64,000 bases of DNA. Source: Trypanosoma brucei (taxonomy: Eukaryota). A program made the position numbers and the translations under genes. The stretch is from contig CM000208.1 in the NCBI GenBank assembly GCA_000002445.1, positions 800,001-864,000 of the forward strand, in the 5' to 3' direction. Under the pieces are notes generated by a model. That model was not told where the DNA came from, ran no database searches, and worked only from the letters and a program-made list of their open reading frames with translations. Shown here piece after piece: positions 15,930 to 47,230 of the stretch (positions are counted from its first letter, which is position 1; the number at the start of each line of letters is the position of its first letter).

Positions 15930-18284
15930 ATGAATGTTCTCATTGGAAAACGTGAGCTTTTTGCATTCGCGGAACGCTACTCCGAGTGCCGCATAAAGGA
16001 GTATGCAGAGCTGGCAGATGGTGCCATACTGTGTTCTTTGTTCGCTGCCGTGTTTCCAAATATGCGCATTCGGACTGCAACATCGCAGACGCACACACGT
16101 TCTCAGCTTGCGCATGCAAACTGGTCAGCTTTACGCAAAGCGTTAAGTGCTGTTGGCATCCCTCCGTCGTTGCTTAACCGTGAAAGGCTGCAGTGTGGCG
16201 ATGCTGAAAGCGGCTTCTCCGCCCTTGTGCTTTTCTACTTTTTGTTTCACCTGTCGAGGCGCAGCGACTTCTCTGCAGAGTTCGCCGCTGATGTCTCTGA
16301 AGAGCTCACAGAGTTTCTTCAGTCAGTTGATTCCATCGCGGCACTTGTTGCTGGAGGCGCCATGTCCTTAAGCGCGGTTCCACTGCCTTTACAAGAGCAA
16401 TTGCGAGGTGCTATTATGAGAACACGTGAAGGATGTGGGCTTCCAGAAGGCGGGAAGGAGAGTGGAAGAAGTTGTGGTGATACGGGCTTAGACACTGCTT
16501 GTCCCTCATCTGTTGTCCTTGCTGTGCAGATGGATGGAGGAGATAATGAAAACAACGAGAAAACAACATCGGATGACCTAAAAAGGCCGCCGAGTTTCAG
16601 TTCTCCCGAAAAATTTGCTGAGAGGAAGGATGACCGAGTGCCTCAAGAGACAGGGGGAAACGAAAGGGAAGTCCACTCCGGTTATTCAGTCTGTAGGAAG
16701 TGGAAACAAGATGACAGAGAGTGTGAAGAGGCATATGACACTATCGACCACTGCGATAGCTGCAGGGGTGGCGATGCTGGGTATCGTAGAATGGCTGCTG
16801 GTGTGGCGGAGGAAGTGGGTGATGAGTTGATGGCGCCCATATTTCAACAAAATCGTGATCTTCAAGAGTTACTAATGGTCAAAGAAAAGAAGTGTGAGGA
16901 ATTAAAAGCACAGAACTTAGAACTACTTGGCCACTTAACTAAACTCCGCATCCAGTATTCGATGGAAAAAGCTTTGCCCTGGCAGGGTGACGATACAGCG
17001 AACGAATCTACCAAAGTGGAGAAGGGTGAACTTCTAGCATCGGAGGAAGTGCAACACCTGCGCTCTGTTCTGCAGACCACAAGATCGGAGCGTCGCCGAC
17101 TTGCGGCAAAGGATGGTGTTCCTATCGATGAACTTCTGGGGGGCATCGTTGATGCGGAGACGGGAGAAGTAATTGATGTTGAAAACGAGGCCACTTTGCT
17201 TAATGGTGTGCTCGCTGATGTTCTTCGTGATATTCCTCGCGATCGGCGCGAGGCCCAGAGATGTCTTTGGCGCATTGTGTCCGCCTTCAACGTTTTGGAA
17301 GAACGTCTTGCAGTTGCAGTTGGTACACAAAAACCGAATTGTGAGCGAGTGAAAAGGGAAGCAAATACGATCTTTGGTGATGACGGTGGCGAATGTGGGT
17401 CACCTGCTTCGGTTTTCCGCCCCCCCACCACTCCGTGCACCACCGCAAAACTTGTTGAGTCTTGTGATGATTCATCAATGTTTGATCTAAAGGCCCCCGC
17501 CGACCCTTCTTTGTCGCCTGAAAACATTTTCTCGCGGTTAAAGGAGGAGATGATACTGCGACAGAGGCGATTTGAACGCCAGCTTATTCAACTGCACGAC
17601 AATGAGGCACGACTGCAGAAACGTATCCATGTACTACAGAACAAAATCTGCCATTTGTGTCAGAGGTCTCTGGAACGTGATTTGACGTGGAAGTCCTTGT
17701 GCGCTGCAATCTGTGAAGCCGAACGCACTTCACTTCTTGTTGCAGATGCGGAGAGTGAGGAAGCGGTGGAACGGCTGCTGGAACAAAGGAATGCATGCTA
17801 CATACGTGCAGACGAAGTATCGGCTTCGCTTATGCGGGACCAAGAGGAGCAAGGTGATGCTCTTATTATGCCCGGTGGCCATGAGAACGACTGCCACGAT
17901 GTGTGTGAAACAATGAAGGTGCTCCTTGAGAGCGTTACGCAGGACAGAGACAAACTGTTAAAGGAACTCGAAGCTCTGCAAGACGTGGGTGAAACTGGGC
18001 GCAATCAAAGAACTGAGCACCAGCAACGGTTGTCAAAGGGTGACTTGAGAAAGTCTGTGCGAACGCTTCTGCAGGAGGAGGGTCACTCGAGCAATGGGGA
18101 GTGGTTTGCGCAAACAAGCACGTTTTTTCCCTTTGCTTCCTCACCTTCAAAACTTGTGCTGAAGAATTCGGTGTCCGCAGCACAACAGGAGGACGGTCGA
18201 CCCCTTCATGGGGGTCGTTGCCCATTGCCTCCAGGGGAAAACCTTTCTGCGCTGCTCTCATTGCCTGGAGTGATAGGACGGTAA
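15930..18284 (+). CDS. Hypothetical protein with an N-terminal calponin-homology-like (Hook/EB1/SPEF1-type) region followed by long coiled-coil segments
   Basis: True ATG. The N-terminus 'ELFAFAERYSECRIKEYAELADGAILCSLFAAVFPNM...ANWSALRKALSAVGI' fits the CH-domain hydrophobic pattern. The central and C-terminal parts are heptad-rich (E/L/R/Q). Confidence 0.55.
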   Translation: MNVLIGKRELFAFAERYSECRIKEYAELADGAILCSLFAAVFPNMRIRTATSQTHTRSQLAHANWSALRKALSAVGIPPSLLNRERLQCGDAESGFSALVLFYFLFHLSRRSDFSAEFAADVSEELTEFLQSVDSIAALVAGGAMSLSAVPLPLQEQLRGAIMRTREGCGLPEGGKESGRSCGDTGLDTACPSSVVLAVQMDGGDNENNEKTTSDDLKRPPSFSSPEKFAERKDDRVPQETGGNEREVHSGYSVCRKWKQDDRECEEAYDTIDHCDSCRGGDAGYRRMAAGVAEEVGDELMAPIFQQNRDLQELLMVKEKKCEELKAQNLELLGHLTKLRIQYSMEKALPWQGDDTANESTKVEKGELLASEEVQHLRSVLQTTRSERRRLAAKDGVPIDELLGGIVDAETGEVIDVENEATLLNGVLADVLRDIPRDRREAQRCLWRIVSAFNVLEERLAVAVGTQKPNCERVKREANTIFGDDGGECGSPASVFRPPTTPCTTAKLVESCDDSSMFDLKAPADPSLSPENIFSRLKEEMILRQRRFERQLIQLHDNEARLQKRIHVLQNKICHLCQRSLERDLTWKSLCAAICEAERTSLLVADAESEEAVERLLEQRNACYIRADEVSASLMRDQEEQGDALIMPGGHENDCHDVCETMKVLLESVTQDRDKLLKELEALQDVGETGRNQRTEHQQRLSKGDLRKSVRTLLQEEGHSSNGEWFAQTSTFFPFASSPSKLVLKNSVSAAQQEDGRPLHGGRCPLPPGENLSALLSLPGVIGR

Positions 18285-20671: not shown

Positions 20672-21309
20672 CTGTCGTAGTTGCTGTTAGTGGGAACCGT
20701 AACCATCTTTGGAGTTTTTTTTTTCGCACCTCCTCCCCTAAGGCAATGTGAGTTCGACTGGATACATCACTTGATCATGCCTGCCTGGGGTGAGATACTG
20801 GTTCCTTGGGCAGACTGTGAGGCAGCCATCTGGGGCACTGGTTGATTCACGTAACATTTAGTTCTCCTGTTACCTGCAAGTGACGGAGGTGCAATTGTAG
20901 CGGCTAGGTGACGAGATCTGCCTTTGTGTTTCATGAATACATTGTGGAACTTGTAGCATCCTGCGTGTTGTCCGTGCGTTAAGGTTCACCCCTGTCTATT
21001 TGTGAGTGGTGAGTGGGGTATGAATCTCATCCCTTGAAAACATTTTTCACTTTGGAGTGCCTTGTTTTTGCTGCAAATTGGGGTCTTCTGTCCTTTGGTT
21101 GTATATTTTTTTCCTCCCCATTTACGGCCTTTTTCCAGGTTGCTTTTCGGGACTCCCCATGTTTTGTCGCTTTTGTGGTTTACGGTCGTGCTAGAGCCAT
21201 TAAACTTTTATCTCAATGATTTTTCTTCCCCGCCGTCACGGTGACAAACACAAACGTGTATGTATGTGTATCCGTGAACTGTACATTTAGAAGACAAAGG
21301 AACAAGACC

Positions 21310-21927
21310 ATGGTATCCAACGGTAAAACCAACGGCAACGAGCGGAGCATAACCGGACGGGAACTCCGACCTGTTGAAGGACTTCAGATACGTGTACTTG
21401 ACGATCCACGCTTAGTTGAACGCATCCGCGTTTTAGATGGGTATTGCTTGCCTATTAAGTACGGGGACCACTACTATGACACGTACGTGCGGCCTTGTGC
21501 TCACAGGTATAGCCAAATTGCCCTCTTTCACGACATGCTTGTGGGGAGTTGTACCTGTAGACTTGAGCGCACTGAGGATGAGGATGAGTTTTTTCTCTAT
21601 ATCATGACGATTGCAGTACTTGAGCCGTATCGGCGGCTCGGTGTTGGTAGTCGGTTGCTTGAGAGCGTCCTACGTGCAGTGGCTAGCGAGACGAAGGTAC
21701 GCGTCCGGCAGGTGACGTTGCATATGCAGGTGAGTTCTCCAGTGATTGAATTTTACAAAACGTTTGGGTTTGAAGTAATGGAAAGAGTGCCAGACTACTA
21801 TACAAACTTGGACGAATGTGACGCCTACCTCCTCCGCAAGGTGATTGACCAACCCCATCTTGAGTCAAAGCAACATCAAAATCGAAAAGCAAAGGGGGGT
21901 GCTGGAAAGGGTGGGAAGGCGAAGTGA
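21310..21927 (+). CDS. N-alpha-acetyltransferase, Naa50 (NAT5/San)-like GNAT
   Basis: Track start 21241 is GTG and the first ATG is 21310. The GNAT core aligns with Naa50: 'YIMTIAVLEPYRRLGVGSRLLESVL' against human 'YIMTLGCLAPYRRLGIGTKMLNHVL', and 'LHMQVSSPVIEFYKTFGFEVMERVPDYYTNLDECDAYLLRK' against '[42 protein letters not shown]'. A K-rich tail follows. Confidence 0.75.
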   Translation: MVSNGKTNGNERSITGRELRPVEGLQIRVLDDPRLVERIRVLDGYCLPIKYGDHYYDTYVRPCAHRYSQIALFHDMLVGSCTCRLERTEDEDEFFLYIMTIAVLEPYRRLGVGSRLLESVLRAVASETKVRVRQVTLHMQVSSPVIEFYKTFGFEVMERVPDYYTNLDECDAYLLRKVIDQPHLESKQHQNRKAKGGAGKGGKAK

Positions 21928-23193: not shown

Positions 23194-25365
23194 ATGGATC
23201 TTGCACAGGCAAAGACTATTCTTGATGCACATGACCCCAGGGTTGTTCGTGTGTTCCAGGAGAGCGTACCGGAGCTTGGCTTGCGGCGGCTCGACGCATG
23301 CGTTCTGGAGTACCTTTTGAGGATGCTTGAGGGGCAGATGAACCCAGCATCATACCTCCCGGAAAAGACGATTGAGCAGACGCTCAGACTTTATTTGAAT
23401 GAATTCCAAGTTTGCCCGGATGAAAATGCTGTGGATTCGGCTGTGGTTTCCATATGCAACGCCATGGAGACGAGCGGGCTGGTGCAAAAACCCAAGGAGG
23501 ATTCGAGTCGTCTTGTTAATGCGGTCAGCATCGGTAGGCAATACGAGGAGAACCTGAAAAAGGCGACGATGATACGGACTGTGGGTAGGGCGGCTGTAGT
23601 TAACACAAATGCGGACTGGACTTGGGAGACAAAACGCAATGCAGCAAAGGAGACCCGCAAAAAGCGGAAAGAGGAAGAAAAGAAGTCCATGCTGGCAGAG
23701 GAATATGAGGAGTTCCTCCAAAAACGTGGTATTGCCAGTGCAACCGCCATAGTTAAAATCCATCACAAGAGTGACGGGGTACAGTACACTACGGATATAC
23801 GGTGCGAGAATATCCGTATCCACATGGGCAAGCAGGTGCTTTTGGATAACACGGAGCTCACTATACTTTCAGGTCACAAGTATGGGCTCGTTGGGCGCAA
23901 TGGAACGGGCAAAACAACACTGTTACGTGCGTTGACGGAGCGGGAGATAGAAGGCGTGAGTCCGTTTGTTCAGATTCTTCATGTAGAACAAGAGGTGGTG
24001 GCAGGAGGGGAAACTCCACTCGAAGTTATACTGTCAGCCGACGTGGAGCGCGAGCAATTACTGCGTGAGGAACAGGAACTGCTCAAGCGCAGCGACGACG
24101 AAGCCAACAACCGGTTGAAGGACGTTTATGAGCGGTTGTATGCTATCGAAGCGCATAGTGCGGAAGCACGCGCGTCAGCTATTCTTAGTGGTTTAAGTTT
24201 TACACGCGAAATGATGACCAGTCCAACGAAGAACCTTTCTGGTGGTTGGCGTATGCGTGTGGCATTGGCACGTGCACTGTTTGTGGAACCGGACGTTCTG
24301 CTGCTGGATGAGCCTACAAACCACCTTGATCTCTTTGCCGTTCTATGGCTTGAGCAGTTCTTGAGGGATTGGAAGCACACACTTGTGGTGGTTTCCCATT
24401 CTCGATCCTTCTTAAACAATGTGTGTGGCGAGATCATCCATCTTGATGACAAAAAGTTGCACTACTACACAGGCAATTACGATCAGTTTGAGATTACGCG
24501 TGTAGAGCAGTTGCGGCAGCAGCAGAAACACCACGACGCACAAGAGCGGCAGCGTGCTCACATGCAAAAATTCATCGATCGCTTTCGTTACAACGCTAAG
24601 AAGGCCAAGATGGCCCAATCGCGTATCAAAACACTTGAACGCATGGAAGTTGTGGCTGCCGTGAAATACGACCCGCAGTTTTCTTTTAAGTTTCCAGATC
24701 CAGAGCCCATTTCTGGGTCATATTTACAGTTGGTTGATTGCGAATTCGGTTACAAACCGGGGACAACGCTATTTCGCGACGTTAACATGGGTATCGACGA
24801 AAACTCTCGGATTGGTCTTCTGGGTGCGAATGGTGCAGGTAAGTCAACTTTCATGAACATTTGTTGTGGAAAATTGGAACCGCGCCAGGGCCATGTGGTG
24901 CGCAACCAAAAAATTCGTGTTGCTCATTTTGCACAACACCATCTTGAGGCGCTCACACCCCAGCTTTCTTCTGTTGAGTTCATGCGCTCAAAGTTTCCGC
25001 AAGTGGAAGATCAACAGTTACGTGCCCATTTGGGCTCTCTTGGCCTTTCGGGTGATAAGGCACTTCAACCCATATACACACTTTCTGGTGGGCAGAAATC
25101 ACGTGCCGTACTTGCTTGGATTACCTTCACGCGACCTCATCTATTGTTACTGGATGAGCCGACGAACCACCTCGATATTGACACCCTTGACGCCCTCATC
25201 GAGTCGCTTCTTGATTACAAAGGTGGGTTGGTGGTGATATCGCACGATGAACACTTTATTACATCGGTGTGCGATGAGATGTTTGTGTGTGGTAACGAGA
25301 CAATAAAGAGATTTGATGGAGACTTCTCAGAGTATCGGGATATTGTTATGAAGCAGATGCGCTGA
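23194..25365 (+). CDS. ABC-F family ATPase (GCN20/ABC50-like, two tandem nucleotide-binding domains, no TMD)
   Basis: True ATG. Walker A 'GRNGTGKTT' and 'GANGAGKST' are present. ABC signatures 'LSGGWRMRVALARAL' and 'LSGGQKSRAVLA' are present. Walker B 'LLLDEPTNHLD' occurs twice, with a K/E-rich inter-domain linker. No membrane domain. Confidence 0.85.
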   Translation: MDLAQAKTILDAHDPRVVRVFQESVPELGLRRLDACVLEYLLRMLEGQMNPASYLPEKTIEQTLRLYLNEFQVCPDENAVDSAVVSICNAMETSGLVQKPKEDSSRLVNAVSIGRQYEENLKKATMIRTVGRAAVVNTNADWTWETKRNAAKETRKKRKEEEKKSMLAEEYEEFLQKRGIASATAIVKIHHKSDGVQYTTDIRCENIRIHMGKQVLLDNTELTILSGHKYGLVGRNGTGKTTLLRALTEREIEGVSPFVQILHVEQEVVAGGETPLEVILSADVEREQLLREEQELLKRSDDEANNRLKDVYERLYAIEAHSAEARASAILSGLSFTREMMTSPTKNLSGGWRMRVALARALFVEPDVLLLDEPTNHLDLFAVLWLEQFLRDWKHTLVVVSHSRSFLNNVCGEIIHLDDKKLHYYTGNYDQFEITRVEQLRQQQKHHDAQERQRAHMQKFIDRFRYNAKKAKMAQSRIKTLERMEVVAAVKYDPQFSFKFPDPEPISGSYLQLVDCEFGYKPGTTLFRDVNMGIDENSRIGLLGANGAGKSTFMNICCGKLEPRQGHVVRNQKIRVAHFAQHHLEALTPQLSSVEFMRSKFPQVEDQQLRAHLGSLGLSGDKALQPIYTLSGGQKSRAVLAWITFTRPHLLLLDEPTNHLDIDTLDALIESLLDYKGGLVVISHDEHFITSVCDEMFVCGNETIKRFDGDFSEYRDIVMKQMR

Positions 25366-25517
25366 GAAATGTTTTCTATACGTTAAGCCTTCGATCCAGT
25401 TGATCAAGAGAGCGCTCTCAGTAATACGTATGGGGGAGGACATACGAAAAAAAAAAGATTAAACATAAATCTATCGAGGTTTTTTTTTGTATACGAAGTA
25501 AACCAGCAGGATACCAA

Positions 25518-25635
25518 GTTTTTTTTGTACCCTTCAGTCATTTTTTTTTTGCCTTTGCGTGTTGCTAATGGAAATTACAAGTACGTTATTCTGCTGTTTC
25601 CCTCCACTTTTGAGCTCTGCCGCGCTTTGGTCTAG
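25518..25635 (+). promoter_or_regulatory. Poly-pyrimidine tracts plus AG, serving ABC-F polyadenylation and the downstream zinc-finger gene's trans-splicing
   Basis: T8-T10 runs and 'ctgctgtttccctccacttttgagctctgccgcgctttggtctag' lie upstream of the ATG at 25678. Confidence 0.45.
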
Positions 25636-25677
25636 GTTGTTGTGCCCCCGGGAGTGATAGAAGAAAAAGTGGGGGAA

Positions 25678-27024
25678 ATGACAAAACAGCAGATGTGCCT
25701 CCGAGATTTTTTTCTAAAAGGGAAAAAAGGTATGATTAAAGACGCTTGTAGTGATGTGATTGATCTTCATGTTGCTGTTAAGGGGGACGAGTTGGTTGAT
25801 GCCTTTTCCTCTAAGGAGAAACATGAATTTTTGGACTCAATGCCACCCATGAAGCATTCTACCGATGTCTCTGCGTCATGTTACCTGGACGATAACGTGC
25901 CAGAAAGCTCCAGCAGTAATCACGGGGAGGGTTCCACTTTAGCAAGACCCAGTGGCGTAACCGCTTTCCCCTTTCAGACGAAACATGTTGGTAAATACGG
26001 CGCACTGACAACACGTAGTAGCAAACGCCCTCGTTCAGGGGCTCAGACATGTCTGGATTTTGGTCAAAGTGACATTGGTGGCGTGACCACCTGCAGGATA
26101 TGTGGAATGATTTATAACGCCGTTATGCCTGAAGATATACGTTTGCACAGGAGGTTCTGTCGACCCCAGGCACTCTCCAACAAAAGGCGTAAGGAATTAG
26201 ATGCTGCTGATGGTCATTGTGTGTGGCTTGCTTCAAGAGATGTTATCGTGCAACTCGATAGACTTGCTGGGTCTCAACGACAGAACTTGGCAATGCAGAG
26301 AAGATACCGCGCCGGTGCAGCGCCAGTGTGCCTTAAAGTGCAAGAGTCCACAGCAGATGAGTTCATTTGCTATGTACTTGAGTGCGGTGCACGGGGTTTA
26401 GCACGCAGCGCCGTGGTTTCTCGGTTTGTTGAAGCTCTGCAGTTCGATGACGTCACACTACAGGGTGAATCAGATTATTGCTTGGTCGCTGTTGTGCAAG
26501 TTTATTTGGAGCGACTCGTTTGTGTTGTGGCGGGGAGACCTGTCGCCCGTACACATGAACCTACGCTACTCCCGTACAAGAACCATTGCGAAACAGCACT
26601 TGGAGGGAAGCAGTATTTGGAAACTTCACAGAAGACCCTGTGTGATGTACCGTATATATGGCTACAAAGTGAGTTGGTGCTTGCCACCACATGGAGGGGG
26701 TGCTTGCAACAGCAAATAGCACCCGCAGTAAAATCGCAGCGGGACGTTACGCGAGACTTTTTCAAATGTAGGGGCATGGCAAGCGAGAAGAAGTTTGAGG
26801 ATTTGCAGCAAACTCGTTCTCTTGGCGACGCTGCCTTAAGTCGCGCCCTGTCCACTTTGGGTCGTCATGTAACGTACGGCTGCGCGTTGTGTCCGCGTAG
26901 GCAGTTTTCGTATGACAGTAGCGTAGTTAATGAAAGCGTGTTGCATCGTGTCGCTGGAGTTATGGGATGTGATGATGTTTCCACTTTGTACACCCACACC
27001 GGTGCGTCGTCTCATTTTCAATAA
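25678..27024 (+). CDS. Zinc-finger protein, possibly an ESCO/Eco1-type C2H2-like finger (candidate cohesin acetyltransferase-related), putative
   Basis: Track start 25642 is GTG and the first ATG is 25678, downstream of the poly-Y/AG at 25518-25635. 'TCRICGMIYNAVMPEDIRLHRRFC' matches the C-x2-C-G-M-x-Y...D..LH...C/H pattern of the ESCO zinc finger. The C-terminal region is not clearly assignable. Confidence 0.5.
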   Translation: MTKQQMCLRDFFLKGKKGMIKDACSDVIDLHVAVKGDELVDAFSSKEKHEFLDSMPPMKHSTDVSASCYLDDNVPESSSSNHGEGSTLARPSGVTAFPFQTKHVGKYGALTTRSSKRPRSGAQTCLDFGQSDIGGVTTCRICGMIYNAVMPEDIRLHRRFCRPQALSNKRRKELDAADGHCVWLASRDVIVQLDRLAGSQRQNLAMQRRYRAGAAPVCLKVQESTADEFICYVLECGARGLARSAVVSRFVEALQFDDVTLQGESDYCLVAVVQVYLERLVCVVAGRPVARTHEPTLLPYKNHCETALGGKQYLETSQKTLCDVPYIWLQSELVLATTWRGCLQQQIAPAVKSQRDVTRDFFKCRGMASEKKFEDLQQTRSLGDAALSRALSTLGRHVTYGCALCPRRQFSYDSSVVNESVLHRVAGVMGCDDVSTLYTHTGASSHFQ

Positions 27025-28557: not shown

Positions 28558-29301
28558 ATGTATCAAGACCGTTGCATATTTTTCTCCAAAATGGGGGCCT
28601 GTCGGCATGGGGACGGCTGCACGAAGGTTCATGTCCGGCCAACCACCTCGCCGACAGTTCTTTTTCCCTTCATGTACCCGAACCCCGCGGCTATTGAGCA
28701 CATTCAGGATAGGGAATGGAATTTTCACTTTGAAAGGAAGTATTTGAGGCGGCATTTTGAGCACTTTTACAAGGAGACGTGGCGGACGTTTATGGAACTT
28801 GGACGGATTGCTGAGCTGCGCGTTGTGAGCAACCTCGGAGACCATTTGCTTGGCAACGTTTATATCCGCTTTGAAGATAGTCACGATGCCTCTCGCATCG
28901 TACGGGAACTAAAGGCGAAGAAATTGAACGACATTGTTCTGTTGCCGGAGCTGAGTCCTGTAACAAACTTTGCTGAGGCTTGCTGTAAGGAGGACCTGGA
29001 GGGTAAATGCGAACGCGGACCGCAGTGTAATTACCTGCACATCATGAAGGTGTCTCGGAAATTAATGGAGAAGTTAGAAAAAGAGCAGGCTAAGTTTTGG
29101 AAAAAGAAGGAGAAGCACAGCAGCAGCAGCAGTAGCAGTCGCAAGAGGGAACGCTCAAAAGAACGTGGTGGAGAGCGCTCGAAGGAACGCTCGAAGGAGC
29201 GCGGGAGGGACAGGCAAAAGTCACCTCGGGGGTATTCCAGCGACATGTGCCATATTTGTGGAAAATCTGGTCACATCTCTCGCGAATGCCCCTTAAAATA
29301 A
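28558..29301 (+). CDS. U2AF35: U2 snRNP auxiliary factor small subunit U2AF35
   Basis: True ATG. N-terminal CCCH finger 'CIFFSKMGACRHGDGCTKVH' and central UHM/RRM-like 'GNVYIRFEDSHDASRIV' are present. Second CCCH 'CCKEDLEGKCERGPQCNYLH' is present. An SR/KER-like repeat 'SRKRERSKERGGERSKERSKERGRDR' is present. C-terminal CCHC knuckle 'CHICGKSGHISRECP' is present. Confidence 0.85.
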   Translation: MYQDRCIFFSKMGACRHGDGCTKVHVRPTTSPTVLFPFMYPNPAAIEHIQDREWNFHFERKYLRRHFEHFYKETWRTFMELGRIAELRVVSNLGDHLLGNVYIRFEDSHDASRIVRELKAKKLNDIVLLPELSPVTNFAEACCKEDLEGKCERGPQCNYLHIMKVSRKLMEKLEKEQAKFWKKKEKHSSSSSSSRKRERSKERGGERSKERSKERGRDRQKSPRGYSSDMCHICGKSGHISRECPLK

Positions 29302-30607: not shown

Positions 30608-32293
30608 ATGCTTCGCCGTACGTTGCCTTTTGCGTTTGCCTTCGTTAAGTCACCCCCTGCGGTGAATGAGCGAATGGATTCGTTTCAACCGGGTTCGGAC
30701 TCTGCTCGTGGAACGTTGGAAGCGTGTAAGCGCCTGCGTTGTGGTGCTACTGATTGCCCAATAGTTATTGGTGGGAAGGAATACCGCACTGATAACGCCA
30801 TCAACCGCATGATTCCATCTAGTCACCAACAGCAGGTTGCGAAGGGGTATAACGCAACACCGGAGTTGGCACAAAAGGCTATTGACACAGCACTGGGTGC
30901 CGCCAAGGAGTGGAGTCAGATGCCCTTTAAAGATCGGGCGGCAATATTTCTGCACGCGGCACATCTTATCTCGACGAAATATCGTCACGAATTGCGTGCA
31001 GCCACGATGCTCGGGCAGAGCAAGAATCCCTTCCAGGCAGAAATTGATGTGATTGCTGAATCGTGCGACTTCCTTCGATTTTCGGTGAAGTACGCCGAGG
31101 AGTTGTACAATCAGCAGCCGATCTCTCCCGCAAGTGGTCCGGTTTGGAACGCTCTTGATTACCGACCACTTGAGGGGTTCGTATCCGTCATTGCGCCCTT
31201 TAACTTTTCGGCAATTGCAGCGAACCTTGTGGCATGCCCCGCACTAATGGGAAATGTGATCTTATGGAAGCCCTCACCCAATGCTGTGCTTTCAAACTAT
31301 CTTTTGTACAAGGTGTTTGAGGAGGCGGGGCTTCCCGCGGGCGTGGTGAACTTCATGCCATGTGAACCAAAGGTAATGACTGAGGTTGTTAATTCTCATC
31401 CCGAGCTTGCTGGCGTCGCCTTTACTGGCTCCACGAACGTCTTCCTCTCTATCAACAAACAGATCTACTCCCGCTTGGAGGAGTACCGCAACATCCCGCG
31501 CATCAGCGGCGAAACAGGTGGAAAGGACTTTCACCTCATCCACCCGACGGCTGATATGAAAATGACAGCTGCTCTGACGGTGCGCGGCGCGTTTGAGTAT
31601 CAGGGTCAGAAATGTAGCGCCACATCACGGATTTACGTGCCGCAGAGTCGGTGGGAGGAGCTAAAGGGGTACTTGTTGGAACTGCATGGGAAGCTGAAGA
31701 TGGGCCAACCCGATGACTTCCAGAGTTTCATGTGCGCTGTTATCGATGAGACTGCATTCGACCGAAACAAGAAGTACATTGACATTGCCAAGGCGGATTC
31801 CAGTGCCTACACCATCATTGCTGGTGGTGGCTGTGATAAGTCGGAGGGGTGGTTTATTCAACCTACCATTATTGTGGCTAAGGACCCCAACGCACAGCTT
31901 CTGCGTGAGGAGATCTTTGGACCCATACTAACAGTGCATGTGTATGATGACAGCAAGCCAGATTTCTGGTCAGAGGCATGCAACCTTGTAAACAACGCAA
32001 CAAAGTATGCTCTAACCGGCAGCATTTTTGCGCAGGACCGCAAGGCGATACGCGATGCGACGGAAAAACATTTGCGCTACGCTGCTGGCAATTATTATAT
32101 CAACGACAAGTGTACGGGGGCGGTTGTCGGGCAACAGCCATTTGGAGGCGCGCGTGCAAGCGGTTCCAACGACAAACCGGGAAGTGCTCTCTTTTTAACG
32201 CGGTGGGTGTCGGCGCGGACCATAAAGGAGAATTTTGACCACAGTGCCCAAGTTTCTTACCCTCATCAGCTACCCGACTACGTGACTCTGTGA
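30608..32293 (+). CDS. P5CDH: Delta-1-pyrroline-5-carboxylate dehydrogenase (ALDH4 family), mitochondrial proline catabolism
   Basis: True ATG. The ALDH fold carries the P5CDH-specific catalytic region 'EYQGQKCSATSRIYV', general base 'GETGGKDFHLI' and NAD-binding 'FTGSTNVF'. Length (560 aa) and 'FGGARASGSNDKPG' are typical of ALDH4A1 orthologues. Confidence 0.9.
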   Translation: MLRRTLPFAFAFVKSPPAVNERMDSFQPGSDSARGTLEACKRLRCGATDCPIVIGGKEYRTDNAINRMIPSSHQQQVAKGYNATPELAQKAIDTALGAAKEWSQMPFKDRAAIFLHAAHLISTKYRHELRAATMLGQSKNPFQAEIDVIAESCDFLRFSVKYAEELYNQQPISPASGPVWNALDYRPLEGFVSVIAPFNFSAIAANLVACPALMGNVILWKPSPNAVLSNYLLYKVFEEAGLPAGVVNFMPCEPKVMTEVVNSHPELAGVAFTGSTNVFLSINKQIYSRLEEYRNIPRISGETGGKDFHLIHPTADMKMTAALTVRGAFEYQGQKCSATSRIYVPQSRWEELKGYLLELHGKLKMGQPDDFQSFMCAVIDETAFDRNKKYIDIAKADSSAYTIIAGGGCDKSEGWFIQPTIIVAKDPNAQLLREEIFGPILTVHVYDDSKPDFWSEACNLVNNATKYALTGSIFAQDRKAIRDATEKHLRYAAGNYYINDKCTGAVVGQQPFGGARASGSNDKPGSALFLTRWVSARTIKENFDHSAQVSYPHQLPDYVTL

Positions 32294-33667: not shown

Positions 33668-34114
33668 ATGGCGAAAGGCAGAGACAGTACTGCTCATATG
33701 CGTGAATTTATCAAACGCCTCCGAGCCCGTTCCAACGTTTCTGAAAGTCCTCAGCCGCAAGAAGGGGAAGCGCCGCCCCGTTACGCTCGCTCTGCCATTA
33801 CTGGTGAGGTAAGAGTTGTTGGTCAAAAGGGACCTCTCACAACATCGTTTCCATCACCCCACCGCCGACTGTTGAGTCATGTGGAAAATATAACTGCCAC
33901 CACCACCTCGAAGCCCGAAGAACCTCCGCTGCCTCCTGCGCTTCAAATAGTGCCGGATGCCGCGGAATGGGAGCAGAACACCGGGACAAAACAACAAAGT
34001 TGCAGGGAGAAACCCGTAAACCCGGCAGCAAAGTCGGAGCCTCGACATGGTGCGAAAAAAGTCAGCAAATCAGGGAATGCCAGCGATGTATTGGAGAGAC
34101 ACAAGAAGCGATGA
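33668..34114 (+). CDS. Small low-complexity hypothetical protein (148 aa). Uncertain.
   Basis: ATG-initiated, on the transcribed strand, inside a 4.4-kb gene-poor stretch. The composition is P/E/K/S-rich and no domain is recognisable. No clean poly-Y/AG lies directly upstream. Confidence 0.3.
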   Translation: MAKGRDSTAHMREFIKRLRARSNVSESPQPQEGEAPPRYARSAITGEVRVVGQKGPLTTSFPSPHRRLLSHVENITATTTSKPEEPPLPPALQIVPDAAEWEQNTGTKQQSCREKPVNPAAKSEPRHGAKKVSKSGNASDVLERHKKR

Positions 34115-34405
34115 AATGTCTAAGGTTGCAGCAAGCAGGAAAAAGAAGAAAAGAAAAGAGAAGAAAAGACACGAATGTTGCTCCGCGGCGCGAAAGTCTG
34201 AATATGAAACACATCAAGTATCAGAGTGATATCACAAGTTGGCGGAGTCGGGACTATTAAAGCATTGCTCTACATTTTTTCCCCCTCATCCGTGTTGTTG
34301 TGCCCTCGGTATCTTTTATAACCATTAGCGACAATGTGCGCGTGGGGGCAAATGGGTGGAGGGAAAGAACACGAGTATGTATATTTATATTTATTTATTT
34401 TATTG

Positions 34406-34441
<36 letters not shown>
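34406..34441. repeat. Compound (TA)n(TG)n microsatellite
   Basis: 'atatatatatatatatatatatgtgtgtgtgtgtgtg' within the 32.3-36.7 kb gene-poor stretch. Further (TA)n runs lie at 32726-32745, 33276-33300, 34988-35005 and 36291-36340. Confidence 0.9.
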
Positions 34442-36722
34442 AGGCTTATGTGTGTATATATGCGTGTATATACTCATACGTGTTATTGATAATGATTTTC
34501 CTCTTTTAGTTGTTGCTTTCGCTTAGTGCTGGGTTGGTGGTCAAGGTATTTAACCGTCCGCTCTCGCAGATATTTTTGTTTTTATTTTCAAAGCTGCTAT
34601 GATGTTATTTTTTTTTTTTACCATGTATATATGTATATTTATATCTTCTGTGTTTCTTGCGTCTAAAGCACTCTTTCTCAAACGATATTTTTATTCCCTG
34701 CGCGCATCGTCATTGGTATAATGCTTTCCTTCATTTAGCCTCGGATACTATTGTTTATGAGCACGTGGCAGTATCTTTTTTTTTTTTTACAAAAAGAAAA
34801 AGAAAAAGAGAAAGCAAAGAGATGGTTGGAAGAGAAGGGGAGTAAAAGGGTGTAGAGAGAGAGAAAGAGAGAAATGGACCGAGACTATTAGTTATAATCA
34901 GATGGAGAATTTATTTCATCCTTTTTTTTCTCATTTTTGTACCCCTTCCTGAATGTTATCTTCTAGTCAATGTTTTTTTTTATACAAATATATATATATA
35001 TATATGTATTTATATACGCTTATTTTTACTTTATTTTTCTTTTTGCTAGAATCTTTATTATTATTATTTGTGATTTTATGATGTGTGTCGTTTTTTCTTC
35101 TTTTCTTTTTGCATTTCAGTCGCTATCTTTTCCACGCGGTGGTGTTTGTACATTTTTGTCTGGTGATGCTAAAATACTGAGAATATTTTGTACAACTCGT
35201 CGCCACTCAAAGCTTCATCATGTGTATTGCAATTATTATTTATGCTTTGTCACGCTCTTTTATTATTATTATTCCCACACTATATTAATAAAGAAAAACG
35301 ATTATTTGTTTCTTTTTTTTTAAAAAAAAGCGGAAAAAAAGACAGTTTTTGCGTGCGTTTCCCTTTTTTTTGTTGTTGTTGTTGCTTTGTCATATCATTT
35401 TTTTTGACTACCCTCATTTTTTTTTATTTCTTCTGTTGTATGAGTGAGACAGAGGAGGGTAGTTGTTGCTCTTTTTTGTTTTTTTTCGTTTTCCCTTTCA
35501 CGTGTTGTTATACCTTTCAAGTCCTTTTTTCTTTTTTTTTTTTTAAAGGATAATAAAGGATTTGAGATGATGCTATTTGTATATATTTTCGTATTTGTCT
35601 TCTGTTTTTTTTTCTTTTCAGTTGCTTCAGGGAAGTTCCCCGGATGTGACTGCTGGATTTTCGTCGTAGTCTTTATTATTCCTTTTCCTTTTTCCTCATT
35701 TCCATCCTTCTGTCTCGCAGCATCGGTGATTTAAAAAAAAAAAAGAAATAGCAACCGATAAGTTATGGTGTGAGGGAGATTAGTTAGTGATGGAATGGGG
35801 ACGGGATGTGTTGGAGAAGTGATAATAATAAAAGAAAGAGATTAAATTTAATAAATACAAAAAAAAAAGCGACGGTGCAAGTGTATTCATGTAAAAGTAA
35901 TCCGTATCGCTGTTGGAGACAATATTCTCACCTTTTTTGTCTCCCTTCTTTTTTTTTAAAAAAAAAAACAATATGCTTTAACCATATTCCCACTAAATCA
36001 ATGACTAACTGACTACCTGTTTGTTTCCTCCTCATTTTTGCTATACGCATGTTTCCCTTCTTTTCTTTTCTCTTTTCCTTTCCTTTTTGTTTTGATTTAT
36101 TCTCTACTCACCATTCAGGTTCTTTGCATATAGATGTTCATATAAGGAATCTGATATGTGGTCAGGTAATTTTGACTAATGGTAGTAACATCCACATTTT
36201 ATGGACTCTTTCTTAATTATTTTTTTCTTTAAATAGTTTAACTACTCTGCGAGTGGACATTGCGAGAATTATTGAACCCTTGGCTAATAGATATATATTA
36301 TATGTATAAATAATATATATATATATATAATATATATTCATGTAATTTGTTTCGCCTGTGTGTTGCACTGGTACAGACCACCATAACTGATGTTACTACT
36401 AATGACAGTATTATTGTTGTCTCTACCTGCCACCTTTTTTTCTTTCTTTTTTTTTAAATACATTTTTTTTTTCCTGCACAGTCTTTTGACTCACGCGGAT
36501 ACGTGGTGAGGCATACAAGAGGAAGTTTTTTTTTTTAAAAAAAAGGGAGGAGGAAACTTGGAAGACGAAGGAAGGAGCTAAGAGTAGGCGAGGGAAGTAG
36601 AATTTGAGGCGTGTACGTATATTTGTGTGTGACAATAATAACATCGATATAAAAGGAAAACGAGTTGGAAACGGTTACGAGTAGGTTGACAGGAACAGGC
36701 GGAGGTCAAGTGATTAAGCTGT

Positions 36723-39079: not shown

Positions 39080-40003
39080 ATGCGATGTAGTTGCGCTTTT
39101 CTTGATAAGTCCGTGTTTGCGGCGAAGCGGCGTGTAATTGTGCCTATCCACCCGACACCGAACTTTCCTGCACATTTCATCAAATCAGCCTTCACAACAG
39201 ACCCGTTGAAGGAAAAGCAGAAGGCGCGTTTTTCCTCCGGTGGTGAGGCCATGCGTGAGGTTCAGGATATTCCCAAGAACCTCGAGGGTGAGCGATCAAG
39301 GCGGGACCTGGCCAGTCGCGGCGACACCGAGTTCCAAGCTCTTGTGGAATTCATAGAAGGTGCTTCATACGATCAACTTATCTCGGGGCGACGGTTTAAA
39401 AAGGTATATGACGTTTTATCGGAAAATGATGACATGTTCATTTGGTTGTGTCACACGGCAATGTCTGTCCTGAACCCAGGCGACATGCGGTCTCGCTTGA
39501 TATATAACCATCTGCGCATACTGGCAGAATCTGTCGCAAGTGGTGAGATGACTCAACGGACGGCGTTTCGCTTCTTTGAATCGGCAGTGCGCAGCCCAGC
39601 TTACCGTGAAATCGCAAAGCGGCAGCTCGAAGGTGGAGCGGCAACGCGACTCGCTGGCATTTCTGCAGCAGCAGACGTGATGCGACGAATGGGTCTTACA
39701 CGGCGGCCTATGTCATCATACTTTGAGTTGTATCAGCGGATTGTGGAGCGCTCCGAAGCCATGACACCGTGGGGATTTCCTCCATTGTTTCAATTTGAGG
39801 AGCGACTGTCGCTGGAGCCGCGGTTAAAGTTTTTCTCCCGTGCATCGCAACAATCACTTGAGCGGCGGCGGCGGGGGCATGTGATGACACCACACACAGC
39901 ACTTCACGGGCGACGCATATTCTGGATTCCACCCACGTGGAATCGTGCCGGTCGGTTCCTTGGCCCCCATGTGACACTTTACCCGGGAATGACTCCAGAT
40001 TGA
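39080..40003 (+). CDS. Conserved hypothetical protein (307 aa)
   Basis: True ATG. Uninterrupted + strand ORF, predicted helical, no recognisable domain. Confidence 0.5.
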   Translation: MRCSCAFLDKSVFAAKRRVIVPIHPTPNFPAHFIKSAFTTDPLKEKQKARFSSGGEAMREVQDIPKNLEGERSRRDLASRGDTEFQALVEFIEGASYDQLISGRRFKKVYDVLSENDDMFIWLCHTAMSVLNPGDMRSRLIYNHLRILAESVASGEMTQRTAFRFFESAVRSPAYREIAKRQLEGGAATRLAGISAAADVMRRMGLTRRPMSSYFELYQRIVERSEAMTPWGFPPLFQFEERLSLEPRLKFFSRASQQSLERRRRGHVMTPHTALHGRRIFWIPPTWNRAGRFLGPHVTLYPGMTPD

Positions 40004-45858: not shown

Positions 45859-46546
45859 GCGTGTGTGAAGTCATTACGAAGGCAATGTGAAGGAGAAGTT
45901 GATGTGTGACCACATACGCAAATACAGTGGCGACGGGAACCATAACCAAGTGAGCACAGTTTCGCGTCTGTGCTGCCGTCCCGAATAAGTTATATCATCA
46001 TATCTGCTTACGATGTGTTGTGCAGGGATTTTTATTTGTTAAGTTTATAGCGGTATCAAATATCTGTTATTATTATTATTATTATTATCGTCATTTCATT
46101 CATCTTGGGTGTGACGGCGTGGACCTCCCGTACAATAACGGGAGGGGCGTGGGAATGACGGGGAGCTCCCTCGCCTTCCCACTCGTGGTCTTTATTTTCT
46201 TGGTGATTCCCGAGTTGTGCGCGTCAGTAGATCCGAGTATCGTTCGTTAGTTGTACATTTGCAACGTGTTCCTCACATTTGTTTTTTTTTCCGCACTTGT
46301 TGGCCGTAGAGGAGGAGTGTTTATGCCATTACGGGTACTTGTACGTTGCTTCACAGCAGCACTTTTCTACTTCCGCCCTCTAAGATGTAGGCCCCATGCG
46401 TTCATTCCTGTCTGCTGATTCATACACATTACCTCGATACCAATAAGATTGTCGTAACAGTTTCCAACATTTACTTTTTTTTTTTTGTTTTATTTTATTT
46501 TTACTGCATGATTTAAACAGAGAAGCACCATTGCGAAGAAGGACAG

Positions 46547-46795
46547 ATGCCCCGAGAGATCAAGAACCTCAAGGAGTTCCTCGCCATTTGCAGCCGTAAG
46601 GACGTCCGCTGTGTGAAGGTTAAGCACAACCCAAAGGTAACCAAATTCAAGGTACGCTGCAGCCGCTACCTTTACACCCTCGTGATGGCTGACAAAAAGA
46701 AGGCTGACAAGATCGAGCGGTCCATTCACCCGACTGTGAAGAAGATAACCGTCACTGCTCGCTCCCACGCCAAGAAGAACACACCAAGCAAGTAA
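46547..46795 (+). CDS. RPL38: 60S ribosomal protein L38 (eL38)
   Basis: True ATG. 82 aa '[57 protein letters not shown]' aligns along its length with eukaryotic eL38 ([60 protein letters not shown]). The overlapping minus-strand ORF 46490..47197 is spurious. Confidence 0.9.
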
Positions 46796-47230
46796 GTTGT
46801 ACGACTCCGTGCGCTGGGTGGAATTATAGGGGGATGAAGGAAGAGCCGAGCAAAGTTTCACAATGGAGTGCTTTTGTAACCATAACCCATGGACGGTTGC
46901 TCTTTCCTTCGTCACCAAGAAAGTGGCACGCTTCTCAATCAATAGTTGCTTCGTTTTTTCCTTTTCCGTACTTTTTTTTTGTTTCATTTGAAAAATGAGT
47001 ACATTACTGTATTCAATCCCCACATCCCCTTGTCGATGTGCCCCTCTCTGTTCGCCTACACCAAATGGGCAGTACTTGTGCATTTGGTGACGCTCTGTGT
47101 TACTCTCACCTGGCGTTTTTGTCATTTCTTTTTTTCTCCTTTTCCATTCAACTATGGAACATGCCGCCTTCGGGTTCGTTTTATTAAAGTGCAGCACACT
47201 TTCGCCCGCAGGAACAAGCGGGATTTTATT

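What the first reader, a model, noticed from the sequence alone, without database searches (positions are those of the whole stretch)
25678..27024. Candidate ESCO/Eco1-type zinc finger
'TCRICGMIYNAVMPEDIRLHRRFC' matches my recollection of the ESCO acetyltransferase zinc-finger signature (C-x2-C-G-M-x-Y ... D-x2-LH-x3-H/C). If the C-terminal half is a divergent acetyltransferase domain ('VPYIWLQSELVLATTWRG' may correspond to the 'RIWV' core), this would be a cohesin-acetyltransferase candidate. Eco1 is poorly characterised in kinetoplastids, and the assignment is tentative.
Basis: inference. Interest (0 to 1): 0.5.

Follow-up and report, generated by a model that had tools for sequence, protein, structure and literature searches.

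The report
Trypanosome Eco1/ESCO cohesin acetyltransferase homologue
This gene is the Trypanosoma brucei counterpart of Eco1/ESCO, the enzyme that locks sister chromosomes together after DNA replication; its zinc finger is textbook, but its acetyltransferase half is so altered that whether it still works in the usual way is an open question.

Summary
ORF 25678-27024 (+) encodes 448 aa. Residues 123-162 match Pfam PF13878, the ESCO zinc finger, at E=7e-15 (55 bits, cut-off 27).

An N-terminal PIP box (QMCLRDFF, residues 5-12) completes the Eco1 layout.

The domain departs from the canonical one. There is a 48-residue helical insertion where the acetyl-CoA loop sits: Trp-to-Gly spacing is 73, against an almost invariant 25. 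Only one mapped catalytic residue is kept, Ser411. Asp323 and His440 are invariant in the 21 orthologues.

Most likely it is a PCNA-tethered SMC3 acetyltransferase with a rewired active site. A pseudoenzyme is not excluded.

Public databases already name the zinc finger, and no functional study was found. I rate it a new member of a known kind, of moderate-low interest.

The parts
25678..27024 (+). Complete coding sequence (448 aa plus stop) of the T. brucei Eco1/ESCO homologue. It lies between ABCF1 (Tb927.10.3170) and U2AF35 (Tb927.10.3200), so it is presumably Tb927.10.3180 or Tb927.10.3190.
   Evidence: ORF. 99% identity to a T. b. gambiense protein. Neighbours identified by Pfam and by gene IDs and lengths in papers. 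The gene ID itself is inferred.
25690..25713 (+). N-terminal PIP box (PCNA-interacting peptide) QMCLRDFF, residues 5-12, pattern Q-x-x-L-x-x-F-F.
   Evidence: It is the only strict PIP match in the protein. Only 0.055% of shuffles place one in the first 20 residues. Q5 and L8 are invariant in Trypanosoma and the motif sits at the same N-terminal place in most trypanosomatid orthologues. 15 of 29 canonical Eco1 proteins have a strict PIP box upstream of the zinc finger. PCNA binding is inferred.
25714..26043 (+). Low-complexity, poorly conserved linker (residues 13-122), predicted disordered. It ends in a basic KRPR patch (residues 116-119, nt 26023-26034) that could be a nuclear localisation signal.
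   Evidence: pLDDT is below 50 for residues 13-116 in the better model, 13-97 and 99-116, with 120-128 also below 50. The region is variable in length and sequence in the alignments. R117 is invariant in Trypanosoma. The NLS role is inferred.
26044..26163 (+). ESCO-type zinc finger, residues 123-162 (QTCLDFGQ...C139-x2-C142-G-M...D153-x3-H157-x3-C161).
   Evidence: Pfam PF13878 at E=7e-15. hhalign of the trypanosomatid profile against the canonical Eco1 profile gives probability 98.5%, E=2.8e-15 over this segment. The model shows two short strands plus a helix.
26164..26319 (+). Helical linker (residues 163-214) between the zinc finger and the GNAT core. It contains the conserved W183-L-A-S186 and is longer than in canonical ESCO.
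   Evidence: Helices 151-185 and 187-207 in the model. W183 and S186 are invariant in Trypanosoma.
26320..26670 (+). N-terminal part of the divergent GNAT acetyltransferase core (residues 215-331). It holds the strands and helix equivalent to ESCO beta3-beta7, including VEALQF (canonical ELGF), VVAG286R...R291, and CD323VPYIW328 (canonical GISRIW).
26671..26823 (+). Lineage-specific insertion (residues 332-382): a helix that starts straight after beta7, a turn containing the conserved F361-F362, and the N-terminal extension of helix alpha3. It replaces the short canonical R-R-x-(G/K/R)-I-A acetyl-CoA loop.
   Evidence: The spacing from the beta7 Trp to the Gly that ends alpha3 is 73 here and 53-229 in the 31 trypanosomatid-type sequences. 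It is 25 in 27 of 29 canonical Eco1 proteins and in mouse ESCO2. The model shows helices 332-361 and 367-397, with pLDDT 92 at 331-340 and 91 at 371-380.
26824..27006 (+). C-terminal part of the GNAT core (residues 383-443): alpha3 (ALSRALSTLGRHVTY400G401), beta8 (QFS411Y412D413, canonical AFSDPT), alpha4, and the last strand LYTH440.
   Evidence: hhalign aligns this segment with canonical 'RRkGIAsrLvD-AR---vFG-vVp---VAFSSPT'. pLDDT is 90-97. S411 and H440 are invariant, and Y400, G401 and Y412 nearly invariant, in 21 orthologues.

Best explanation
This is the Trypanosoma brucei orthologue of the cohesin acetyltransferase Eco1/Ctf7/ESCO. Shown here: it has the three-part Eco1 layout, namely an N-terminal PIP box, a disordered basic linker, and an ESCO-type C2HC zinc finger packed next to a C-terminal GNAT-fold domain whose closest known structures are ESCO1 and xEco2. 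The whole arrangement is conserved across trypanosomatids. Inferred mechanism, taken from the established role of Eco1/ESCO: the PIP box tethers the protein to PCNA at replication forks. The zinc finger plus GNAT domain then acetylate the conserved lysine pair on the SMC3 ATPase head, which stabilises cohesin on DNA and establishes sister-chromatid cohesion in S phase. The catalytic domain is a strongly divergent version. A helical hairpin of about 48 residues is inserted where canonical enzymes have the short beta7-alpha3 acetyl-CoA pyrophosphate loop. Of the mapped canonical catalytic residues only the relay serine is kept (Ser411, equivalent to mouse Esco2 S566). The general-base Asp (D567) is Tyr412 and the second serine (S527) is Pro325. 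Asp323, on the same strand two positions before the S527-equivalent position, and His440, on the last strand, are invariant in the 21 orthologues. I therefore propose that catalysis is retained through a rewired active site (Ser411 with Asp323 and/or His440). That step is inference only.
Against: No sequence HMM recognises the acetyltransferase domain: PF13880 is absent at E<=10 in this protein and in all 21 orthologues. A profile search of PDB sequences aligns only the zinc finger. The canonical 25-residue Trp-to-Gly spacing, which contains the acetyl-CoA loop, is broken, and the model places the equivalent residues inside a continuous helix. In mouse Esco2 the E491Q;D567A and S527A;S566A double mutants are dead (PMC7300003). 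The T. brucei protein naturally lacks D567 and S527, and in one of two hhalign registers it also has Thr where most orthologues have Glu (E292). The mapping of E491 is ambiguous. I had no model coordinates, so the proximity of Asp323, Ser411 and His440 is not verified. The SMC3 acceptor lysines of T. brucei could not be checked. No experimental data exist for this gene in the searched literature.
Confidence: 0.68

Rival explanations
1. Pseudo-acetyltransferase. The protein is a true Eco1 descendant that keeps the PIP box, the zinc finger and the GNAT scaffold but has lost acetyl-CoA-dependent catalysis. It would act non-catalytically, for example as a PCNA- or cohesin-binding adaptor at forks.
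For: PF13880 is undetectable in 21 of 21 orthologues. A 48-residue insertion lies exactly at the pyrophosphate-binding loop, and the canonical loop residues are modelled inside a helix. The D567 and S527 equivalents are missing, and comparable double mutants are inactive in mouse. The R-x-x-G-x-A pattern at residues 380-385 is seen only in T. brucei; Gly is replaced by Val in its closest relatives. In the phylogenomic table of PMC3195147, Wapl, the factor Eco1 normally counteracts, appears to have no entry for Excavata, although the flattened table text is hard to read.
Against: Ser411 (the S566 equivalent), Asp323, His440, Arg291 and Gly286 are invariant across very divergent orthologues, and the GNAT core is the best-conserved and best-modelled part. 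Yeast Eco1 also lacks the Asp (it has Gln) yet is active. Vertebrate ESCO1 and ESCO2 also lack the Gly of the loop (RRKKIA, RRKRIA). Pyrophosphate binding uses backbone amides, so sequence loss is weak evidence.
Confidence: 0.2
2. An active acetyltransferase of Eco1 ancestry whose main substrate in trypanosomes is not SMC3, for example another replisome or chromatin protein, or histones.
For: The substrate-facing wall (beta5-beta7) and catalytic residues differ from the canonical enzyme. Two lineage-specific helical insertions could create a new binding surface. The SMC3 acceptor site could not be examined here.
Against: The PIP box, zinc finger and GNAT architecture is the one dedicated to cohesion establishment in all studied eukaryotes. 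The zinc finger is highly conserved. The related diplonemids are reported to keep Eco1 and the SMC3 lysine pair (PMC12324889).
Confidence: 0.1
3. An unrelated zinc-finger protein whose similarity to ESCO is limited to a chance C-x2-C...H-x3-C motif, with an unrelated C-terminal domain.
For: Sequence searches align only about 40-75 residues to ESCO.
Against: The zinc-finger match scores twice the Pfam cut-off and covers the flanking QTxLDFGQ box, not just the ligands. The C-terminal domain independently retrieves ESCO1 and xEco2 as top structural matches with two programs. The motif order is colinear. The N-terminal PIP box is shared with canonical Eco1.
Confidence: 0.02

Closest known systems
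Fungal Eco1/Ctf7 (S. cerevisiae Eco1 and the canonical Eco1 proteins of alignment A3)
   Same: Both have an N-terminal PIP box, a disordered basic linker, a C2HC zinc finger (C-x2-C-G-M...D-x3-H-x3-C) and a C-terminal GNAT domain in a small protein of about 300-450 aa. Like yeast Eco1, this protein lacks the general-base Asp after the relay Ser (Gln in yeast, Tyr here).
   Different: Canonical proteins match PF13880 (28 of 29) and have a fixed 25-residue spacing between the beta7 Trp and the end of alpha3, containing R-R-x-G-I-A. Here PF13880 is not detected and the spacing is 73, with a helical hairpin inserted. The canonical G-I-S-R-I-W strand is D-V-P-Y-I-W, and AFSSPT is QFSYDS.
Vertebrate ESCO1/ESCO2 (PDB 4mxe, 5t53, 6sp0; Xenopus Eco2 5n1u, 5n1w, 5n22)
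   Different: The vertebrate enzymes have long N-terminal extensions, an H-x3-H finger ending, and the catalytic E491/S527/D567 set. The trypanosome protein is short, ends the finger with Cys, lacks the S527 and D567 equivalents, and carries two helical insertions (residues 163-214 and 332-382).
Other GNAT lysine acetyltransferases (HAT1, ATAT, MYST/Tip60) and the kinetoplastid kinetochore acetyltransferase KKT23
   Different: They have no ESCO zinc finger and no PIP box, and they score clearly below ESCO. They are not candidates for family membership.

Membership tests
Eco1/Ctf7/ESCO cohesin acetyltransferases | ESCO-type zinc finger (Pfam PF13878; QxxLDxGQ box, C-x2-C-G-M, D-x3-H-x3-C/H) directly N-terminal to the catalytic domain | tested here: met
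   PF13878 at E=7e-15, 55 bits against a cut-off of 27, residues 123-162. hhalign against the canonical Eco1 profile gives probability 98.5%. The ligands are conserved in orthologues.
Eco1/Ctf7/ESCO cohesin acetyltransferases | Sequence-level match to the ESCO acetyltransferase domain model (Pfam PF13880, Acetyltransf_13) | tested here: not met
   There is no PF13880 hit at E<=10 for the full protein or for its C-terminal 274 aa. 0 of 21 trypanosomatid orthologues match, against 28 of 29 canonical Eco1 proteins.
Eco1/Ctf7/ESCO cohesin acetyltransferases | C-terminal GNAT fold that is structurally closest to solved ESCO1, ESCO2 or Eco2 domains | tested here: met
Eco1/Ctf7/ESCO cohesin acetyltransferases | Colinear core motifs: ELGF helix, VVG strand, GIxRIWV strand, alpha3 ending in (F/Y)G, and the AFS(D/S)PT strand | tested here: inconclusive
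   All motifs can be placed in the right order: VEALQF, VVAGR, DVPYIW, RHVTYG, QFSYD. The profile-profile support is modest: E=0.02 raw, and E=3.8e-4 with probability 36% after the insertion is removed.
Eco1/Ctf7/ESCO cohesin acetyltransferases | Short beta7-alpha3 acetyl-CoA loop (R-R-x-G/K/R-I-A) with a fixed spacing of 25 residues from the beta7 Trp to the Gly that ends alpha3 | tested here: not met
   The spacing is 25 in 27 of 29 canonical proteins and in mouse ESCO2. It is 73 here and 53-229 in the 31 trypanosomatid-type sequences. The R380-S-L-G-D-A385 pattern exists in T. brucei only and is not conserved.
Eco1/Ctf7/ESCO cohesin acetyltransferases | Catalytic residues defined in mouse Esco2: E491, S527, S566 (invariant in Esco) and D567 (PMC7300003) | tested here: not met
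   The S566 equivalent, Ser411, is invariant in 21 orthologues. The D567 equivalent is Tyr412. The S527 equivalent (Trp minus 3) is Pro325 and is variable. The E491 equivalent cannot be placed unambiguously; the candidate E292 is Thr in T. brucei. So one of four is clearly kept. Asp323 and His440 are invariant in those 21 orthologues.
Eco1/Ctf7/ESCO cohesin acetyltransferases | PCNA-interacting (PIP) motif in the N-terminal region | tested here: met
   QMCLRDFF at residues 5-12. Only 0.055% of shuffles give one in the first 20 residues. It is conserved in orthologues and present in 15 of 29 canonical Eco1 proteins. Actual PCNA binding was not tested.
Eco1/Ctf7/ESCO cohesin acetyltransferases | Acetyl-CoA binding and acetylation of the SMC3 head lysine pair; requirement for cohesion establishment | not testable with these tools
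   This needs biochemistry and genetics. T. brucei SMC3 could not be retrieved with the available collections, so even conservation of the acceptor lysines was not checked.
Eco1/Ctf7/ESCO cohesin acetyltransferases | Being the only Eco1-like gene of the genome (orthologue rather than divergent paralogue) | not tested
   The exhaustive profile search gave one protein per trypanosomatid species among the named hits. However, a T. brucei proteome could not be scanned directly for a second, canonical PF13880 protein.
Generic GNAT superfamily (Pfam Acetyltransf_1 and related) | Motif A, Q/R-x-x-G-x-G/A, at the beta4-alpha3 junction, and a match to GNAT HMMs | tested here: not met
   There are no GNAT-clan Pfam hits. 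The motif-A pattern is not conserved. The fold nevertheless matches GNAT enzymes.

The most novel reading that the evidence does not exclude
Trypanosomatid Eco1 has lost canonical acetyl-CoA-dependent catalysis. The acetyl-CoA loop is replaced by a helical hairpin and at least two of the four canonical catalytic residues are gone (a third could not be placed). On this reading cohesion establishment in kinetoplastids, which may also lack Wapl, would not rely on SMC3 acetylation by Eco1. The protein would act as a PCNA-tethered, non-catalytic cohesin regulator.
Probability: 0.2. Interest if true: 0.6.

Novelty: new member of a known kind. Interest (0 to 1): 0.35.

Why it matters
Cohesin is essential in T. 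brucei and has been linked to monoallelic VSG expression (reference listed in PMC3866873). No cohesion-establishment factor has been studied there. Fixing this gene as the Eco1/ESCO orthologue gives a concrete handle for asking how cohesion is established in a lineage with unconventional kinetochores and possibly no Wapl. That handle consists of PIP-box, zinc-finger and Ser411/Asp323/His440 mutants, plus SMC3 acetylation read-outs. The unusual catalytic domain is a natural experiment on which features of ESCO enzymes are dispensable. It has an insertion at the acetyl-CoA loop, replaced catalytic residues, and is invisible to Pfam PF13880. It also explains why automatic annotation names only the zinc finger. 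Because it is so diverged from human ESCO1 and ESCO2, it could in principle be selectively targetable, but that is speculative.

Tried and rejected
1. Pfam scans of the C-terminal half alone and of all orthologues for PF13880 or any GNAT model found nothing.
2. phmmer and profile hmmsearch against PDB sequences aligned only the zinc finger.
3. hhalign of the full trypanosomatid profile against the canonical profile aligned only the zinc finger. C-terminal halves alone gave a colinear but weak match, E=0.02. Global mode was uninformative.
4. The first AlphaFold2 run, with 5 sequences, was unusable at mean pLDDT 43. The 21-sequence alignment was needed.
5. The AlphaFold-database fold library was not available. 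Model coordinates are not exposed to scripts. I therefore could not measure distances between Asp323, Ser411 and His440, and I could not obtain a residue-level structural alignment to place E491.
6. Literature searches for a trypanosome or Leishmania Eco1/ESCO study found none. An apparent 'ESCO' hit in PMC12749359 was the surname Escobar.
7. Naming the more distant relatives (P0024, P0027, P0028, P0031, P0032, P0035, P0041, P0135) failed. They come from unnamed assemblies.
8. I considered fetching T. brucei SMC3 to check the acceptor lysines. No collection available here holds trypanosome genomes, and a word-indexed search with human SMC3 would be swamped by closer homologues, so I did not spend the search.
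9. The overlapping ORFs 26426-26719 (+) and 26502-26855 (-) were dismissed as frame artefacts inside a conserved coding sequence.
Full report
**1. The observation**

The region holds one long + strand ORF. Read from the first ATG it spans 25678-27024 and encodes 448 aa. An in-frame stop lies 15 codons upstream of that ATG.

The protein is 99% identical to a 'hypothetical protein, conserved' of Trypanosoma brucei gambiense. Three neighbours fix the locus:
- The upstream 723-aa ABC-F ATPase matches ABCF1, Tb927.10.3170.
- The downstream CCCH/CCHC protein matches U2AF35, Tb927.10.3200.
- The aldehyde dehydrogenase matches P5CDH, Tb927.10.3210.

The window is therefore T. brucei chromosome 10, and the gene is presumably Tb927.10.3180 or Tb927.10.3190. 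That ID is inferred. Neither ID occurs in the main text of any paper in the library. All but two of the ORFs of 200 aa or more lie on the + strand, as expected for one polycistronic unit.

**2. The zinc finger**

[quoted passage not shown] The score is 55 bits against a cut-off of 27, over profile positions 1-39 of 40. It is the only Pfam family reported even at E<=10.

The only PDB sequences found by phmmer are ESCO2 (6sp0) and ESCO1 (5t53). The ligands C139, C142, H157 and C161 give the C2HC spacing. That spacing is also nearly invariant in canonical, motif-selected Eco1 proteins. Vertebrate ESCO1 and ESCO2 end the finger in His.

**3. Relatives**

A word-indexed search found orthologues in T. 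congolense, T. theileri, T. melophagium and T. cruzi marinkellei. An exhaustive HMMER profile search of 1.84 billion representatives gave 211 hits at E<=1e-3. The hits fall into two groups.

- P0001-P0023 share the whole length, including the C-terminal half. Those that carry names are other Trypanosoma species, Phytomonas, Leptomonas and Angomonas.
- Most of the remaining hits match only the N-terminal PIP-box-to-zinc-finger part of the profile. Of 29 that I selected by motif, 29 have PF13878 and 28 have PF13880, so they are canonical Eco1/ESCO.

A few unnamed assembly proteins also carry the ESCO finger plus the trypanosomatid-type C-terminal domain, and none has PF13880. These are P0024, P0027, P0031, P0032, P0035, P0041 and P0135.

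Database names already point to ESCO. UniRef uses 'N-acetyltransferase ESCO zinc-finger domain-containing protein'. NCBI uses 'N-acetyltransferase ESCO' for T. melophagium. [quoted passage not shown]

**4. The C-terminal half**

Sequence models fail. PF13880 and every GNAT-clan model are absent from this protein, from its C-terminal 274 aa alone, and from all 21 trypanosomatid orthologues. Profile searches of PDB sequences and hhalign on the full profiles align only the finger.

Structure prediction settles the fold. With 5 sequences AlphaFold2 failed (pLDDT 43). With 21 sequences it gave mean pLDDT 70.8, with residues 180-443 mostly at 83-97. Two programs compared this model with solved structures:
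- Foldseek's nine hits with E<=1e-3 are all ESCO1 or Xenopus Eco2, with target TM-scores of 0.52-0.61. HAT1 comes next.

hhalign on the C-terminal halves gives a weak but colinear alignment (E=0.02). After I added the distant relatives and spliced out the insertion, E improved to 3.8e-4 with probability 36%. The aligned motif pairs, trypanosome first, are:
- VEALQF with ELGF
- VVAGR with VVG
- DVPYIW with GIxxIW
- ALSRALSTLGRHVTYG...QFSYD with RRkGIAsrLvD-AR---vFG...VAFSSPT

**5. How it differs from canonical ESCO**

I used the mouse Esco2 sequence recovered, where chain index plus 366 equals residue number. This reproduces E491, S527, S566 and D567 of PMC7300003.

In canonical enzymes the beta7 Trp (GIS527RIW) and the Gly that ends alpha3 are exactly 25 residues apart. 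This holds in 27 of 29 Eco1 proteins and in mouse ESCO2, and the stretch contains the R-R-x-(G/K/R)-I-A acetyl-CoA loop. In T. brucei the spacing is 73, and it is 53-229 in the 31 trypanosomatid-type sequences.

The model shows a helix (332-361) starting two residues after beta7. A turn follows with the conserved F361-F362, then a long helix (367-397) whose C-terminal half is alpha3. The bases of both helices are confident, with pLDDT 91-92. A second helical addition (163-214) lies between the finger and the GNAT core.

The four canonical catalytic residues map as follows:

| Mouse Esco2 residue | T. brucei equivalent | Status |
|---|---|---|
| S566 | Ser411 | invariant in the 21 orthologues |
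| D567 | Tyr412 | replaced (Gln in yeast Eco1) |
| S527 (Trp minus 3) | Pro325 | replaced; variable among orthologues |
| E491 | not placed | see below |

For E491, one hhalign register pairs it with the Glu of the family motif R291-E-Q-D/E-P, where T. brucei has Thr. Two other registers are my own by-eye alternatives.

The family's own invariant residues in this domain are Gly286, Arg291, Asp323, Ser411 and His440. Asp323 lies on beta7, two positions before the S527-equivalent position, which by strand alternation should put it on the same face. His440 lies on the last strand. An R-x-x-G-x-A pattern at 380-385 exists only in T. brucei.

**6. The N-terminus**

QMCLRDFF (residues 5-12) is a strict PIP box. 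Only 0.055% of shuffles of the protein place one within the first 20 residues. Q5 and L8 are invariant in Trypanosoma, and strict or relaxed versions sit at the same place in most orthologues. 15 of 29 canonical Eco1 proteins have a strict PIP box upstream of the finger. Many profile hits aligned from profile position 2-5 through the finger. Residues 13-116 are predicted disordered, apart from residue 98, as are 120-128. The linker ends in a basic KRPR patch at residues 116-119.

**7. Mechanism**

Shown: the architecture is PIP box, linker, ESCO zinc finger and an ESCO-like GNAT fold, conserved across trypanosomatids.

Inferred from established Eco1/ESCO biology (PMC7300003; PMC9884251 abstract; PMC5349539 abstract): PCNA-dependent recruitment to replication forks and acetylation of the SMC3 head lysine pair stabilise cohesin and establish cohesion.

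Given the missing canonical residues, activity would have to run through a rewired site. I suggest Ser411 with Asp323 and/or His440, which is pure inference. My estimates are:
- about 0.9 that the gene is the Eco1/ESCO orthologue;
- about 0.68 for the whole statement, including retained SMC3 acetyltransferase activity.

The main rival is a pseudo-acetyltransferase (0.2). It is supported by the insertion at the CoA loop and by the natural equivalent of mouse mutants that are inactive in double combinations. The invariant polar residues in the cleft region and the precedents in yeast (Gln for Asp) and vertebrates (no Gly in the loop) argue against it. A change of substrate gets 0.1. An unrelated zinc-finger protein gets 0.02 and is effectively excluded.

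**8. Novelty and score**

The ESCO link of the finger is already in public annotation. A phylogenomic survey scored Eco1 as present in most Excavata (PMC3195147). The basic identification is therefore not new.

What I did not find described in the papers searched is:
- the structural assignment of the PF13880-negative C-terminal half to the ESCO GNAT fold;
- the family-wide insertion at the acetyl-CoA loop;
- the altered catalytic set;
- the conserved PIP box.

No functional study of the gene was found. I rate it a new, uncharacterised and divergent member of a known kind, with interest 0.35. The finding is solid and useful to trypanosome chromosome biologists. It would surprise a specialist only if the domain proved to be catalytically dead.

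Noticed in passing
window 21241-21927 (+): A 228-aa ORF two genes upstream is a conventional GNAT acetyltransferase (Pfam Acetyltransf_1 E=1e-10, Acetyltransf_7 E=1.3e-9). It has no ESCO finger and looks unrelated to the finding, but it is a second acetyltransferase in the same transcription unit.
   Followed up: no
window 23194-25365, 28558-29301, 30608-32293 (+): The neighbours are an ABC-F ATPase of 723 aa (ABCF1, Tb927.10.3170), a CCCH/CCHC zinc-finger protein (U2AF35, Tb927.10.3200) and an aldehyde dehydrogenase (P5CDH, Tb927.10.3210). Together they place the window on T. brucei chromosome 10.
   Followed up: partly
window 1-64000: 22 of the 24 ORFs of 200 aa or more are on the + strand, and cumulative GC skew rises steadily. 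This is consistent with a single polycistronic transcription unit. The two minus-strand ORFs (16862-17527, 46490-47197) overlap + strand ORFs and look spurious.
   Followed up: no
window 34001-36000 and 62001-64000: Two stretches have markedly lower G+C (0.34-0.35 against about 0.47 elsewhere) and no long ORF. They may be long intergenic or UTR regions or repeats.
   Followed up: no
C-termini of orthologues P0003-P0007, P0009-P0012, P0015-P0019 (alignment A2): Most trypanosomatid orthologues end in an acidic tract followed by a conserved L-S-V-V-S-Y motif. The tail is absent from T. brucei, T. congolense and T. vivax, suggesting it was lost in salivarian trypanosomes. Its function is unknown.
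   Followed up: no
proteins P0024, P0027, P0028, P0031, P0032, P0035, P0041, P0135 (unnamed assemblies): These more distant proteins carry the ESCO zinc finger without PF13880. All but P0028 also match the trypanosomatid-type C-terminal domain. Some are very long (up to 1229 aa), and in P0031 229 residues lie between the beta7 Trp and the end of alpha3. P0028 has an 'ALAFSS' strand intermediate between the two types. The source organisms could not be identified.
   Followed up: partly
window 15930-18284 and 39080-40003 (+): Two sizeable ORFs (784 aa and 307 aa) have no Pfam match at E<=1e-5.
   Followed up: no
window 25366-25677: The 312-bp intergenic region upstream of the gene contains several T-runs of 8-10 bases (about 25478-25552). 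This is what one expects for a trans-splicing polypyrimidine tract. The splice acceptor was not mapped.
   Followed up: no
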